A DNA stretch of 46,428 nucleotides, taken from a virus (Duplodnaviria > Heunggongvirae > Uroviricota > Caudoviricetes). The stretch is taken from the IMG/VR virus record IMGVR_UViG_2622736468_000002, one strand, 5' to 3'. Below are positions 6,001 to 9,000 of the stretch, in pieces. Within the stretch, counting starts at the first letter, position 1; every line of letters begins with the position of its first letter. A program made the position numbers.

Positions 6001-9000
6001 ACATTTTGTTCTCCACGTATATGCGCTGCACCGCGCTGAATTTGGGTAAAAGGAAGCCCTCACCATCCGGTGATTATTGAGTTAATTACGTTTCCATAAA
6101 TGCCCCCGCAGGGGCATTTGCAGTAATGAAATCAGGCGGTGAAAGTACCAATAAAGGTTTCTACTTTGCTGTCTTTGAATTTCTCAACAAGCAGATCACG
6201 AAATTCGTTAGCCATATCTTCCTGCACCGCTTCCAGCTGAATAATGCGCAGAACCAGTACAGGGCGATCACCAGTGATAATGCTGAGGCGTAATTTAAAC
6301 GGACGTTCTTTCAGGCCTTCAAACGGAACGCATTTAAACTCAAATGCTACTGGCATAATGTCTTTGGTTTTCGCTTCGACAGACTCCATCAAAGAGCGTT
6401 TGCCGCTGAAGTCATTATCTTCAAAATCAGCGGTCTGGTTTGCTTCAATCGTGATTTTACGGACTGCCGCAGCCGCTTTTGTTGCCTTAATAGCGTCACC
6501 ATTAGCATCAAAGCCCACAAGATAGTCGGCCCAGTCTTCAATCCATTCTGCCAGTGACTTCTGGGAGTTACGCTCGCCGTTAACAGACAACAGAGCAGAG
6601 AACGGTGCTGTCTTTTTCAGTTTGAGTGTGGCGGTGTTATCTGCGTGACCTGGTTCACCAATAGTACCCAGGTTAAGCACACTGACGGCACGCATATTAT
6701 CGGCATCGATAAAGCAGCGGGTGCCTTCATCTGCAAGATCTTTAGAATAACGGGTAAAGTCATCGATGCTGGCAGTGGAAAGCGCACCACGGAAACGGAA
6801 GCGATTTAAATTAAATTTTTCCAGCTCATGAATGCGGAAATTCTCAGGCAATGCCACAGCATCGGCACCAATCTTACTGATAATTTCATTAACACCCTGA
6901 GCAGAAATAAGGGCATGGATTTGATTAATTGCGGTTGCGTCTAAGTTCTGAGACATAATAAGTCCTCACTATATTAAGATATTCAGTGATGAGATAAATA
7001 ATCAGTTAATTAAGAACGATATTAATGACCTGCTGCGCGGAGTTTTCCGTCAGGTTCACCGGCAAGAGTCAGTAATTGTCCCTGGTCTTCCTGCAGAATA
7101 GTCAGGCGACCACCTCGATTGACATACATCGGCGTTTCGGTGGTGTCTTCTTCGGAGATTTTCCCGCGGTTAGTCGGGCGAACATATGAGAGTTTGTGTT
7201 TGATTTTCACACGGTTCTCATCAAACGGTTCGATGTCCAGATTGACCGAGACTTTACCTTTGTTTTTCGTGTTCATCACACCGGAAGCGACTTCACTGAG
7301 AACTGCGCCGAGTTTGGTTTCAAATACGCCGCCGTCCAGTTCTACGATAAATACCTGCACATCAGTACTGCGTACGCTAGCCATTTTGCTGCTCCTCATC
7401 ATACCGACCCTGCAAGGTCGGTTGGTTTCTCCACAAAACAGAGAAGAACACCTGCGGTGACAGCCGCCCGGATGGATTGGGTTATGAGCCCGTCGTCCGG
7501 TGATGCTCTTCTCTGTTTTGTAAAAAGAGCGGTACCAGCCGGAAGCAAGGGTACAAACTGGTACCGCCAAAGCAGTGGCTGTTGTGGTGGGGTTGTCACT
7601 CAGGCGTATGGTCAACCTGACAATCCGGTGTCCTCAACGGGGAAAGAGTAACCCCGCCATACTTACCGCCGCGCCATTTCGCGGATTACCACAACGCTGA
7701 GAGCACTTAGCCAGTTACGGCACCACACTTTGTCGCGGTTCCATAAATGCCCTCATCGTTGCACCCTGGTCTCTTCCCAGGCGTCAAACCGGATCGCCAC
7801 GCTGGTTAGGCGTCTTATCAGCATCATCATTGACTTGCACATTCCGGCTACCTGGTTTGTTTGCCCGAGCAAGGAGTGGATTGTCCCCTTTAACGTCACC
7901 AGACCGCTAACGACGCATGTGCCATACGCCGTGTTACAACCAAATTTTGTTAGTACCTTGTTTGTATGTCTGGAAAGAAAGATAAAATGAAGTTGCGCAT
8001 TATGCAAGTGTTTTTATTGCGAGATATGCAATTTGGTGGGTAATGAAAAGCCACCTTCTGGTGGCTAATTGATGTTGAGGTAGGGGTTAATTGTGTCGCT
8101 TAAGGGTTTGTGACTGACTGATTAAGACCTTTCCAAAGACCATAAACCGATGTTCGTTTTCGCTGGTAATTCCCCATTCGCGGTAAATCTGATTATCAGA
8201 AATTACCAGCAGTTTATCAGGTATCATTTGCAGTCGTTTGACGTAAATTTTATCATCAAAACCAAATACATATATACCATCCCCATCAAACTGATTGATA
8301 CTGATATCAACGAAGATGAGATCTCCTGGCTCAATGGTTGGACACATACTGTCCCCACGAACGTTGATAACTTTAATGTGATTGGCTGGCCGTCCGCCAA
8401 ACATCGATACAGCATTATCAGTTCTGTATTCAATGGCATGAATCACATCAATGACATCACCGCCCTGGATAAGGCCATTTCCCGCACTGGCACTGACATC
8501 CAGCATTTCAATACGGAATACATCCTTCACCTGCGCAACATCCTCACCAATACTGTTTTTACATACAGTATTACTTTTGACGTCTGAGGTAAAGAGATCA
8601 GCGATATCAACACCTAAGCTCCTGGCAATATTACTCAGGGCTTGTTCAGTGAATTGTTTCTGCTTACCTGTTTCCAGGCGTGAGATATTCGCCGCATCCA
8701 CTCCTATTGCTTCAGCGAGATCGGCGATTTTCATGTTCTTCGCCTGGCGAAGTTGTCTGACTCGGTTTCCTATGTTCATGCGTTTATTACATTTCTTTAT
8801 TGCGCGTTAAGCAAATCAACTTGCGCAAAATATTTGCGTGAAATAATATGCTCATCACGCAATATGTGGAGGTTATATGCAATCACCATTACGGAATGTG
8901 CGTAAGGCGCACGAATTTACTTTGCAGCATGTTGCTGCGGGCGTTCAGGTCAATCCAGCGACGCTGAGTCGTATTGAAAGACTGGAACAAATTCCATCTA

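What the first reader, a model, noticed from the sequence alone, without database searches (positions are those of the whole stretch)
7385..8086. Structured 0.6-kb ORF-free leader where an N antiterminator gene would be expected
Left of cI there is a terminator hairpin (8040..8066) and then two operator-like sites (TTGCGCATTATGCAA, TTGCGAGATATGCAA) that match a third copy in the cI-cro region, which implies a leftward pL-like promoter. Between these and the first early-left gene there is no credible ORF and no Arg-rich N-like protein; the 84-aa and 66-aa track ORFs have no RBS and look random. The region carries a perfect 15-bp inverted repeat around a 58-nt GC-rich loop (7434..7521), a GGTACCAG...CTGGTACC hairpin (7531..7568) and further GC hairpins. 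It may encode a cis-acting RNA, for example a put-like RNA-based antitermination element as in HK022, or a processed sRNA, rather than a protein.
Basis: partly seen in the sequence, partly recalled or inferred. Interest (0 to 1): 0.55.

Follow-up and report, generated by a model that had tools for sequence, protein, structure and literature searches.

The report
Non-coding RNA array in prophage leader
The "empty" 0.6 kb between the prophage repressor gene and the first early-left gene is a chain of conserved structured RNA modules, including a widespread, apparently uncatalogued 250-nt pseudoknotted RNA, a tRNA-slot cassette and a diverged DicF-type terminator, so this virus starts its early-left transcript with RNAs where phage lambda has the N protein gene.

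Summary
Window 7385-8086 has no credible gene. It carries the cI terminator, two operators, a plausible pL and unusually stable hairpins.

It is not a blank leader and not a copy of HK022 put. Read leftwards (minus strand) it is a mosaic of RNA modules:
- **D (7947-7696):** a ~250-nt pseudoknotted RNA with no Rfam family. It has six helices, and 19 of 34 pairs show compensatory changes across 73 distinct sequences. It lies directly after pL in lambdoid phages with at least seven repressor types, and next to tRNA genes in P1-like and epsilon15-like phages.
- **Cassette C (7695-7581):** a multi-stem unit in the slot where epsilon15-like phages carry tRNA-Arg. It is 93% identical to the sequence immediately 5' of DicF in the K-12 Qin prophage.
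- **DicF-family hairpin and intrinsic terminator (7580-7522):** it coincides with the mapped 3' end of the published sRNA-17.
- **An 89-nt hairpin and a small hairpin** before the yfdP ribosome-binding site.

Best reading: a pL leader that produces structured and small RNAs and attenuates the early-left genes. What D does is unknown. A put-like antitermination role is the most novel reading still open.

The parts
8049..8066 (-). Intrinsic terminator of the cI-like repressor gene. It insulates pL from read-through.
   Evidence: Terminator scan: 7-bp stem with 5 G-C pairs, then TTTTCATT.
7993..8031 (.). Two operator sites, OL1 (7993-8007) and OL2 (8017-8031), of the same 15-bp type as the site at 8800-8814 in the cI-cro region.
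   Evidence: Direct-repeat family D1; pattern search against shuffles.
7979..8007 (-). Putative pL: -35 TTGCAT (8007-8002) inside OL1, 17-nt spacer, -10 TATCTT (7984-7979). Start near 7971.
   Evidence: Read from the sequence. ST64B has the same geometry (TTGCGC, 17 nt, TAATTT). The consensus scan did not report it, so this is an inference.
7696..7947 (-). D element, a structured RNA domain of a family with no Rfam entry.
- P1: 7931-7924 / 7918-7911, loop GGCAC
- P2: 7904-7899 / 7855-7850
- H-type pseudoknot: S1 7813-7810 / 7802-7799 and S2 7807-7804 / 7790-7787
- P5: 7781-7777 / 7769-7765, loop GAAGAGA
- P6: 7754-7748 / 7706-7700
   Evidence: Model R1 hit of 204.3 bits, E 3.5e-76, the only copy in the window. 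Covariation. At least 120 viral contigs hold its 16-mer.
7581..7695 (-). Cassette C, a four-way-junction RNA. It is closed by an acceptor-like stem, GUUGUGG (7695-7689) / CCACAAC (7587-7581), followed by AGCCA. It sits in the slot where related phages carry tRNA-Arg.
   Evidence: Fold. 93% identity to the Qin spacer immediately 5' of DicF. The tRNA-Arg of TL-2011b starts at the aligned GUGG. C is followed by a DicF-like element in Qin, PPompW and pPE4. Covariation is weak.
7519..7580 (-). Diverged DicF-family element that ends in an intrinsic terminator. Stem 7567-7558 / 7538-7529, tail UCUUUUU 7528-7522. It equals the 3' end of the published sRNA-17.
   Evidence: Model R3, built without DicF or this window, scores it 30.6 bits (E 3e-5) and true DicF 34.1 bits. 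Alignment to DicF. The sRNA-17 primers and alignment match this sequence. Rfam's DicF model does not reach it.
7433..7521 (-). Long hairpin with a stem of about 25 bp and a branched tip. It is a candidate RNase III site, a second terminator, or both.
   Evidence: -51.2 kcal/mol, z -7.4. Conserved in ST64B with one G-C to A-U double change in the stem.
7403..7422 (-). Small G+C-rich hairpin just 5' of the yfdP ribosome-binding site (GAGGAG 7397-7392).
   Evidence: Inverted repeat I15. ST64B has a different hairpin at the same place.
7022..7384 (-). yfdP, the first protein gene of the early-left operon.
   Evidence: phrog_204, E 2.5e-48. PGAP annotates it as a 'YfdP family phage-associated protein'.

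Best explanation
The gap is the untranslated leader of the early-left (pL) operon of an N-less lambdoid prophage, and it is itself a compound non-coding RNA locus.

Once the repressor leaves OL1 and OL2, RNA polymerase starts near 7971 and transcribes, in order:
1. the D domain;
2. the acceptor-stem cassette C;
3. a DicF-type hairpin that is an intrinsic terminator.

Proposed sequence of events:
- Most transcripts end at about 7523.
- The precursor is cut at the acceptor-like stem, by RNase P or RNase E, as at a tRNA 5' end. This releases a stable D RNA of about 250-270 nt and an sRNA-17-type RNA of about 175 nt (cassette plus terminator).
- The transcripts that read through also cross the 89-nt hairpin, which is a second barrier and a likely RNase III site.
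- These read-through transcripts become the yfdPQRS mRNA.

The leader therefore works both as a source of structured and small RNAs and as an attenuator or insulator for the early-left genes.

**Shown here:** the module boundaries, their homologies, RNA-level conservation on the minus strand, and the terminator.
**Taken from a paper on a sister prophage:** the RNA ends.
**Inferred:** the processing enzymes, the termination efficiency, and any trans-acting targets.
For: - **Mosaic of separately conserved non-coding modules**.
- **D is a real structured RNA on this strand.**
  - In the seed alignment 92.4% of cells pair, against 26-46% when partners are slid. 15 of 34 pairs change on both sides. 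The covariation score is 0.278, against 0.076 or less for slid partners.
  - With 73 distinct sequences 93.6% pair and 19 of 34 pairs change on both sides. No shuffle out of 500 reaches any of the five measures.
  - Several near-invariant G-U and U-G pairs would be A-C mismatches on the other strand.
- **D is the first element after pL.** In 63 of 121 contigs, an ORF of at least 120 aa on the same strand ends within 250 nt upstream of D. The C-terminal sequences of most of these ORFs look LexA/cI-like, and the seven representatives checked with Pfam are HTH or HTH+S24 repressors of different types.
- **A true tRNA occupies the cassette slot in other phages**.
- **C directly precedes DicF or DicF-like elements** in Qin, PPompW and pPE4.
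- **The hairpin at 7580-7519 belongs to a DicF-like family.** A model built from independent members recovers both it and true DicF.
- **Published data on the homologous RS218 locus (PMC7719688):**
  - The 5' RACE end of sRNA-17 is at CGUUGUGG, the foot of the acceptor-like stem, and the 3' end is at the terminator U-tract.
  - The gene-specific 5' RACE primers are plus-strand sequence, so the RNA is minus-strand sense.
  - The qRT-PCR amplicon runs from D into the terminator, so the modules are co-transcribed.
  - Replacing the cassette raised yfdP reads about 95-fold, a cis effect.
- **DicF precedent.** DicF is made by termination plus RNase E and RNase III processing of an early-left operon transcript (PMC5069750).
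Against: - There are no transcript data for this window or strain.
- pL matches the consensus poorly, and the scan did not call it.
- Cassette C is too conserved for convincing covariation: only 3 pairs change on both sides, and 34 of 500 shuffles reach that count. Its fold is not better than shuffles (z -1.0).
- The DicF-like element lacks the DicF 5' seed and fails Rfam's DicF model, so a trans-acting role is unproven.
- Qin, SfIV, mEp460_4F5, ST64B and pPE4 have the cassette and terminator without D. D is therefore not needed for those parts, and this model leaves its role unexplained.
- This prophage copy carries IS insertions and may be inactive.
Confidence: 0.6

Rival explanations
1. D is a cis-acting processive antiterminator RNA, a functional analogue of HK022 put but not a relative. 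It would fold on the nascent pL transcript, stay with RNA polymerase, and carry it through the DicF-type terminator, the long hairpin and Rho sites of the 0.6-kb untranslated leader into yfdPQRS...xis-int. This is compatible with the RNA-array picture. It differs only in what D does.
For: - D is the first transcribed element after pL in lambdoid phages with at least seven repressor types, including HK022-cI-like ones.
- No N gene is annotated anywhere in the prophage.
- Two terminator-like hairpins lie between D and the first gene.
- D has about 60 invariant nucleotides, mostly in loops and junctions, as expected for a surface that contacts a partner.
- RNA-only antitermination has a precedent in a lambdoid phage (PMC9378689).
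Against: - D fails a put model.
- There is a single copy and none after pR, whereas HK022 has putL and putR.
- In P1 and P7, a truncated D sits between trnI and ban, with no DicF-like terminator detected by model R3.
- Relatives with the same terminator, hairpin and yfdP lack D (SfIV, mEp460_4F5, ST64B).
- The DicF terminator of Qin is read through without D (PMC5069750).
Confidence: 0.2
2. The locus is an independent sRNA gene with its own ArcA-repressed promoter inside 7698-7944, as proposed for sRNA-17 in E. coli K1. On this view the window holds only a 'degenerate' copy.
For: PMC7719688 reports that ArcA-P binds the fragment homologous to 7698-7944, that expression depends on oxygen, and that a Northern signal is seen in a lysogen. 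O104:H4 accessions appear in that paper's list of degenerate copies.
Against: - The proposed promoter fragment is the D RNA itself, which shows strand-specific compensatory changes.
- No sigma-70-like site was found on the minus strand inside it.
- The paper's own qRT-PCR amplicon starts at the far (pL) end of that fragment, so the fragment is transcribed.
- The mapped 5' end lies at the foot of a stem that is a tRNA 5' end in other phages, which suggests processing.
Confidence: 0.1
3. The gap is the decayed remnant of protein-coding genes, such as an N-like or other early gene, or it holds an unrecognised small protein gene (66-aa or 84-aa ORF).
For: The 66-aa ORF matches phrog_33599 at E 6e-18. 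Some phage records annotate hypothetical proteins here.
Against: - Pfam finds nothing.
- The PHROG match covers only residues 24-60, which lie over the terminator and the long hairpin shared at the DNA level.
- PGAP calls no gene.
- The same DNA blocks occur next to tRNAs and inside other operons, where the ORFs do not exist.
- Variation follows base-pairing, with compensatory changes and G-U pairs.
Confidence: 0.04
4. The conserved blocks act as DNA, for example extra operator or regulator sites, a recombination or attachment site, or a replication element.
For: ArcA-P was reported to bind the homologous fragment (PMC7719688). The module boundaries coincide with recombination joints between phages.
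Against: - The helices contain many G-U and U-G pairs that are nearly invariant on one strand only.
- Orientation relative to the downstream tRNA or terminator is constant in lambdoid, P1-like and epsilon15-like contexts.
- Pseudoknot covariation has no meaning for duplex DNA.
Confidence: 0.03

Closest known systems
dicBF operon of the Qin prophage (ydfABC-[long untranslated region with DicF]-dicB)
   Same: - It is an early-left operon under a cI/DicA-type repressor, with a long untranslated stretch.
- The same cassette C (93% identical) lies immediately 5' of a GGCGG...CCGCC-U-tract terminator RNA.
- Termination there is partial, with read-through into downstream genes, and RNase E and RNase III process the transcript.
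   Different: - Here the array comes first, directly after pL, not after three small genes.
- The terminator RNA has lost the DicF 5' seed and fails Rfam RF00039.
- A 250-nt D domain absent from Qin precedes it.
sRNA-17 of E. coli K1 RS218 (Sun et al. 2020, PMC7719688)
   Same: - Same locus between the repressor and yfdP.
- Same D-homologous upstream fragment, acceptor-like stem, terminator hairpin and downstream hairpin.
- The paper's primers match the window.
   Different: - The central body is a different cassette. RS218 has a GGUGAAU...CACC, STnc100-like core, whereas the window has the Qin-type C, so the paper lists these strains as 'degenerate'.
- The paper treats D as promoter DNA. The evidence here says it is transcribed, structured RNA.
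HK022 putL/putR antiterminator RNAs
   Same: They are promoter-proximal structured RNAs in the early operon of an N-less lambdoid phage, upstream of terminators.
   Different: - put is about 70 nt with two stem-loops, and has one copy in each early operon.
- D is about 250 nt, pseudoknotted and single-copy, with no sequence or model similarity to put.
- No functional data exist for D.
STnc100 (RF02076) / PasD prophage sRNAs
   Same: - Their multi-stem core is closed by a ...GGUGAAU / CACC... stem and followed by a terminator.
- The ST64B leader cassette hits the STnc100 model (35.1 bits, E 7.7e-6).
- The window has a true STnc100 after its late-region tRNAs.
   Different: - The window's cassette C does not match the STnc100 model, even at E up to 5.
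- It sits in the early-left leader, not the late region.
RNAs released from tRNA precursors or lying next to phage tRNAs (3'ETS-leuZ; GOLLD and ROOL). Comparison from my own knowledge.
   Same: These are non-coding RNAs physically linked to tRNA genes, whose ends are set by tRNA-processing enzymes. They include large structured RNAs that cluster with tRNAs in phages.
   Different: There is no sequence or model relationship (no Rfam hits). In the window the tRNA itself is replaced by a tRNA-slot cassette.

Membership tests
HK022 put RNA | An RNA of about 70 nt with two stem-loops, similar in sequence and structure to putL and putR | tested here: not met
   blastn-short finds only chance 7-9-mers. 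Model R2, built from putL and putR, recovers both at 100 and 88 bits but finds nothing in 7385-8086 with filters off and E up to 10.
HK022 put RNA | One copy downstream of each early promoter (pL and pR) | tested here: not met
   The only candidate (D) has a single copy in the window, and none lies to the right of cro.
HK022 put RNA | Lies close to the promoter and upstream of terminators in the early operon | tested here: met
   D begins about 25-40 nt after the inferred start and precedes the terminator at 7567-7522 and the long hairpin.
HK022 put RNA | Suppresses termination in cis through the RNA polymerase beta' zinc-binding domain | not testable with these tools
   This needs reporter or in vitro transcription assays.
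DicF (Rfam RF00039) | Reaches the family's Rfam score | tested here: not met
   No DicF hit in the window at the gathering score or at E up to 5. The same model finds DicF in Qin at 76.7 bits.
DicF (Rfam RF00039) | 3' hairpin UUGGCGG...CCGCC followed by a U-tract, recognisably homologous to DicF | tested here: met
   Model R3, built from 13 independent DicF-like sequences, scores window 7580-7519 at 30.6 bits (E 3e-5) and true DicF at 34.1 bits. Pairwise alignment.
DicF (Rfam RF00039) | 5' seed UUUCUGGUGAC | tested here: not met
   The window has AGCCACUGCU in its place.
DicF (Rfam RF00039) | Lies in the untranslated part of an early-left prophage operon, directly 3' of cassette C | tested here: met
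sRNA-17 (PMC7719688) | Same locus and flanks: repressor, D-homologous fragment, RNA, hairpin, yfdP | tested here: met
   The paper's primers for the 'promoter', the 3' end and the identification PCR match the window sequence.
sRNA-17 (PMC7719688) | 193-nt RNA body | tested here: not met
   The central cassette is replaced, and O104:H4 accessions are in the paper's 'degenerative' list.
tRNA | Recognised as a tRNA (cloverleaf, anticodon) | tested here: not met
   ARAGORN and Rfam tRNA find only the three late-region tRNAs.
tRNA | Acceptor-type closing stem with an NCCA-like tail, in a position occupied by a tRNA in relatives | tested here: inconclusive
   The stem GUUGUGG/CCACAAC plus AGCCA is present, and the TL-2011b tRNA-Arg starts at the aligned GUGG. 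Covariation is weak.
STnc100 (RF02076) | Match to the Rfam model | tested here: not met
   No hit in the leader at E up to 5. The ST64B cassette in the same slot gives 35.1 bits, below the gathering score of 47.
Lambda-type N/nut antitermination | A small Arg-rich N protein gene between pL and the first terminator | tested here: not met
   ORFs in the gap get no Pfam hit and no informative PHROG hit. PGAP annotates no N anywhere in the prophage.
D element (family defined here) | P1, P2, pseudoknot S1/S2, P5 with a GAAGAG loop, P6, and the invariant GGUAGCCGGAAUGUGCAAG | tested here: met
   The window scores 204.3 bits against R1, and all six helices are present. The window sequence was itself in the seed alignment.

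The most novel reading that the evidence does not exclude
D is a new class of nascent-RNA transcription regulator. It would be a 250-nt pseudoknotted element that rides with RNA polymerase from pL and makes it resistant to intrinsic and Rho-dependent termination. It would then be the N-less counterpart of nut/N and put in a large group of enterobacterial temperate phages, reused in P1-like and epsilon15-like phages ahead of or behind tRNA genes.
Probability: 0.2. Interest if true: 0.85.

Novelty: new variant of a known kind. Interest (0 to 1): 0.62.

Why it matters
- **Early transcription without N.** Lambdoid phages are the textbook case for early transcription control, yet many of them lack N. 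Here the N position is filled by conserved RNA modules in phages of many immunity types.
- **A new RNA family to test.** The largest module has the hallmarks of a functional RNA: a pseudoknot, compensatory changes and invariant loops. It has no Rfam family, and neither the papers I could search nor the phage records I looked at describe or annotate it. That gives a concrete object for asking how such phages pass early terminators.
- **DicF in context.** DicF, sRNA-17 and STnc100-type RNAs appear as interchangeable cassettes of one modular, tRNA-punctuated architecture. This may explain how their ends are made and how new prophage sRNAs arise by cassette swapping.
- **Reinterpretation of a published locus.** The fragment published as the 'sRNA-17 promoter' looks like transcribed RNA.
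- **Pathogen relevance.** The element is present in O104:H4 and in Stx2-converting phages. About 1000 of 5426 complete E. coli genomes carry most of this leader.

Tried and rejected
- **Rfam 15:** nothing in the leader at the gathering score over the whole window, or at E up to 5 over 6900-8900.
- **tRNA finders:** ARAGORN finds no tRNA or tmRNA in the leader.
- **HK022 put:** rejected as a family by blastn-short and by a covariance model.
- **Protein reading:** Pfam finds nothing. I judge the PHROG hit to the 66-aa ORF an artefact of mis-called ORFs over conserved hairpin DNA.
- **Internal promoter:** no consensus site on the minus strand within 7386-7970.
- **boxA resemblance:** CGCUCUUUUUACAA at the terminator tail looks like boxA (from memory). 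I dropped it because relatives have CCGCCCUUUUU there.
- **RNase P RNA resemblance:** D has short strings that look like RNase P RNA (CCGGGUAG..AGCCAGUG, GGAAGAGUCCGG, UGCAAC..GAGAGCA; from memory). I dropped this because they are not collinear with RNase P RNA and the permissive Rfam search listed no RNase P family.
- **D-terminator pairing:** AGCCGGAA in D is complementary to UUCCGGCU in this window's terminator loop. Other DicF-like terminators lack it, so I treat it as chance.
- **Extra pseudoknot in D:** GCACAU (7922-7917) with AUGUGC (7842-7837). Both are invariant, so this cannot be tested.
- **Second D copy near pR:** none.
- **D in Qin, SfIV, mEp460_4F5, ST64B, LLS, PPompW and pPE4:** absent.
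- **Genome-wide 16-mer scan:** most hits outside the Enterobacteriaceae fail the model and are chance.
- **Literature:** text searches for D sequence strings and for 'DicF + tRNA-like' found nothing. Faubladier & Bouche 1994 (PMC205167) could not be read.
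Full report
**Where the window comes from.** The 851 bases around the finding are 100% identical to a lambdoid prophage of E. coli O104:H4 and related strains, integrated next to yecN/cmoA. The local gene order, right to left:
- a cro-like gene (8877-9137, plus strand);
- a cI-like HTH + Peptidase_S24 repressor (8087-8779, minus strand);
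- the gap;
- yfdP (7022-7384, minus strand, GAGGAG ribosome-binding site), then yfdQ, yfdR and yfdS, running on to xis and int.

PGAP annotates a Q antiterminator but no N-like gene, and it annotates nothing in the gap.

**The observation.**
- The repressor gene's terminator is at 8066-8049.
- The 15-bp sites at 7993-8007 and 8017-8031 have a third copy at 8800-8814. They cluster far more tightly than chance allows.
- A promoter can be read by eye on the minus strand: TTGCAT, 17 nt, TATCTT, with a start near 7971. ST64B has the same geometry, but the consensus scan did not call it.
- Both inverted repeats are real.
- The minus-strand leader is 5.5 standard deviations more stable than dinucleotide shuffles. 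The long hairpin is 7.4 more stable.
- None of the ORFs in the gap has a Pfam match. The one PHROG match (66-aa ORF) covers only the residues over the terminator and the long hairpin.

**The gap is a mosaic.** Searches of 5426 complete E. coli genomes and of 50,697 phage records show that different stretches of the 701 bases are conserved separately, in quite different settings.
- Most of the leader (at least 80% of it) is present in 999 genomes.
- Bases 7589-7695 match almost every E. coli through the Qin prophage.
- Bases 7768-7945 match P1/P7-type phages and plasmids.
- Bases 7689-7932 match epsilon15-like phages (TL-2011b, phiV10).
- Bases 7386-7570 travel with yfdP (SfIV, mEp460).
- The long hairpin alone is found in Salmonella ST64B.

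**Module D (7947-7696, minus strand).**
- *Distribution.* A 16-mer from its most conserved stretch (GGTAGCCGGAATGTGC) is found in at least 120 IMG/VR contigs, with 106 distinct versions of the core.
- *Helices.* Alignment shows six helices: P1, P2, an H-type pseudoknot (S1/S2), P5 with a constant GAAGAG(A/U) loop, and a closing helix P6 around a variable insert.
- *Seed alignment (24 sequences).* 92.4% of cells pair, against 26-46% when the partners are slid by 1-3 columns. 15 of 34 pairs change on both sides, and the covariation score is 0.278 against 0.076 or less.
- *Model-based alignment (78 matches, 73 distinct).* 93.6% pair, 19 of 34 pairs change on both sides, and no shuffle out of 500 reaches any of the five measures. 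This alignment is fitted to the model, which favours the structure. The seed alignment was not fitted and gives the same picture.
- *Strand.* Several almost invariant G-U and U-G pairs mark the minus strand as the structured one.
- *Copy number.* The model finds exactly one copy in the window and none near pR. It finds none in Qin, SfIV, mEp460_4F5, HK022, ST64B, LLS, PPompW or pPE4.
- *Host range.* Among 100 of the species-representative genome loci that hold the 16-mer, only 13 hold D. Those whose titles I saw are all Enterobacteriaceae. The rest are chance matches.
- *Prior description.* Rfam 15 has nothing like it, and searching papers for its sequence strings found nothing.

**Where D sits.**
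- In 63 of 121 contigs, an ORF of at least 120 aa on the same strand ends within 250 nt upstream of D. By their C-terminal sequences most of these are LexA/cI-like repressors, and the seven representatives run through Pfam are HTH or HTH+S24 repressors of different types. In lambdoid phages D is therefore the first thing transcribed from pL.
- In TL-2011b-type phages, D lies within about 170 nt of a divergent intergenic region. It is followed, after three bases, by tRNA-Arg(UCU).
- In P1 and P7, a shorter D without P6 begins right after the CCA end of trnI and runs up to ban, in a gap with no annotation.

**The slot after D.**
- In nearly all full-length cases D is followed by GUUGUGG. This opens either a true tRNA (GUGGCAU...) or one of several unrelated multi-stem cassettes that close with CCACAAC and an NCCA-like tail.
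- The window's cassette C (7695-7581) folds as a four-way junction. It is 93% identical to the Qin sequence that lies immediately 5' of DicF.
- C is also followed by DicF or DicF-like elements in PPompW and in phage pPE4, where it sits in a leader between a DicA-type repressor gene and kil.
- Its structure is kept in nine sequences (92.9% paired, against 35-56% slid), but only three pairs show double changes. Support is therefore modest.
- The cassette in the same slot of ST64B and of the RS218 prophage is of another type. Its core matches Rfam STnc100 below threshold (35.1 bits, E 7.7e-6).

**The GGTACC hairpin.**
- Aligned to Qin, 7580-7522 falls on DicF itself.
- I built a model from 13 DicF-like sequences taken from other contigs, excluding DicF and this window. 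It scores true DicF at 34.1 bits and the window at 30.6 bits (E 3e-5). It also finds the element in SfIV, mEp460_4F5, phiSTEC1575, ST64B and LLS.
- The window's copy has a 10-bp G+C-rich stem and a UCUUUUU tail, which makes it an intrinsic terminator. It lacks the DicF 5' seed, and Rfam's DicF model does not reach it.

**Published evidence on a sister locus.** Sun et al. 2020 (PMC7719688) described a 193-nt 'sRNA-17' in an mEp460-like prophage of E. coli K1 RS218.
- Their primers show it is this locus.
- The 3' end is the terminator tail, equivalent to window 7523.
- The 5' end is CGUUGUGG, the foot of the acceptor-like stem.
- The gene-specific 5' RACE primers are plus-strand sequence, so the RNA is minus-strand sense.
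- Their 'promoter' fragment equals window 7698-7944, which is D.
- Their qRT-PCR amplicon spans from D to the terminator, so D is co-transcribed.
- Replacing the cassette raised yfdP reads about 95-fold.
- O104:H4 strains are in their list of 'degenerative' copies, because the central cassette differs.

For DicF itself, Balasubramanian et al. (PMC5069750) summarise that its ends come from termination plus RNase E and RNase III processing of the operon transcript.

**What follows the terminator.** The 89-nt hairpin (7521-7433) and a small hairpin (7422-7403) lie between the terminator and the yfdP ribosome-binding site. ST64B keeps the long stem with one G-C to A-U double change. A stem of about 25 bp is a plausible RNase III substrate. 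With its UUUUGU tail it could also be a second terminator. Both are inferences.

**The put hypothesis.** HK022 putL and putR were taken from the phage record. They share no significant similarity with the leader. A covariance model built from them recovers both, but nothing in the leader. By the criteria in Hwang et al. 2022 (PMC9378689), the region is therefore not a put family member. What remains is position: D sits where put and nut sit, in phages with no N, upstream of two terminator-like hairpins. Against a put-like function:
- D is single-copy;
- in P1 no DicF-like terminator was detected after D;
- relatives have the same terminators without D.

**Conclusion.**
- *Best supported:* the gap is the untranslated pL leader and is a compound non-coding RNA locus. 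It holds D, then a tRNA-slot cassette, then a DicF-type terminator, then a processing or termination hairpin. It yields stable RNAs and attenuates transcription into yfdPQRS.
- *Shown here:* module boundaries, homologies, RNA-level conservation and the strand.
- *From the literature on homologues:* the RNA ends.
- *Inferred:* the enzymes, the efficiencies and any targets.
- *Open:* the function of D. The most interesting possibility is cis antitermination.
- *Novelty:* the locus belongs to a known kind, namely prophage early-operon leaders that encode DicF-type RNAs. It adds a new, widespread structured domain and a modular, tRNA-punctuated layout that I did not find described.

Noticed in passing
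window 9333-10546 (+): An IS3-family insertion sequence (orfA and orfB, with the Rfam ALIL frameshift pseudoknot at 9614-9730) interrupts the ymfL/cII-like gene just right of cro. The gene is intact in the O104:H4 locus L001.
   Followed up: partly
window 5156-5659 (+) and 5594-6031 (-): A 167-aa ORF that looks like IS1 InsB (from my own knowledge) lies against a C-terminally altered yfdR. This prophage copy therefore seems to carry a second IS and may be defective.
   Followed up: no
window 16721-17236 (+); L249 2192-2310 (-): The late-region tRNA cluster (Met, Arg, Arg) is followed by Rfam STnc100. The STnc100 core shares its closing stem (..GGUGAAU / CACC..) and its CCGGGAGGCACCCGG hairpin with the cassettes found in pL leaders. 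The ST64B cassette hits RF02076 at 35.1 bits. STnc100, sRNA-17 and these cassettes may form one superfamily.
   Followed up: partly
L003 about 2270-2400 (-), Qin prophage: Between DicF and dicB there is a second cassette of the GUGGUGAAUGCGG...CACCAGGCAC type, seen by eye. DicF may therefore be flanked by junction cassettes on both sides.
   Followed up: no
L004 about 2440-2470 (-), P1; also P7 (L251): After the truncated D, and just before the ban ribosome-binding site, P1 has UUUCUGGUGA, identical to the first 10 nt of DicF.
   Followed up: no
L025 4741-4973 and 3938-4168 (-); L253 1045-1105 and 1138-1198 (-): One viral contig has two tandem copies of D. Phage pPE4 has two tandem DicF-like elements after cassette C. 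The modules can be duplicated.
   Followed up: no
window 7585-7579 (-): The 3' strand of the acceptor-like stem plus the next base reads CACAACA. PMC4104026 gives this as the consensus target of the GcvB R1 seed, carried by the prophage anti-sRNA AgvB. If this strand were single-stranded after processing, it could act as a GcvB decoy. This is pure speculation.
   Followed up: no
window 7922-7917 and 7842-7837 (-): Two invariant hexamers in D (GCACAU and AUGUGC) are complementary. They would compete with the top of helix P1, giving either a further pseudoknot or an alternative fold. Covariation cannot test this.
   Followed up: partly
L024, L028, L072 (about 20-30 nt 5' of D): The sequence GGAGUGCGCUUCCAGGUGUG just upstream of D resembles a P6 3' strand followed by the start of an acceptor-like stem. 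This hints at remnants of tandem arrays.
   Followed up: no
window 7402-7599 (-): phrog_33599 (unknown function) seems to be a family of ORFs called across the conserved terminator and hairpin DNA. It is probably an annotation artefact rather than a protein family.
   Followed up: partly
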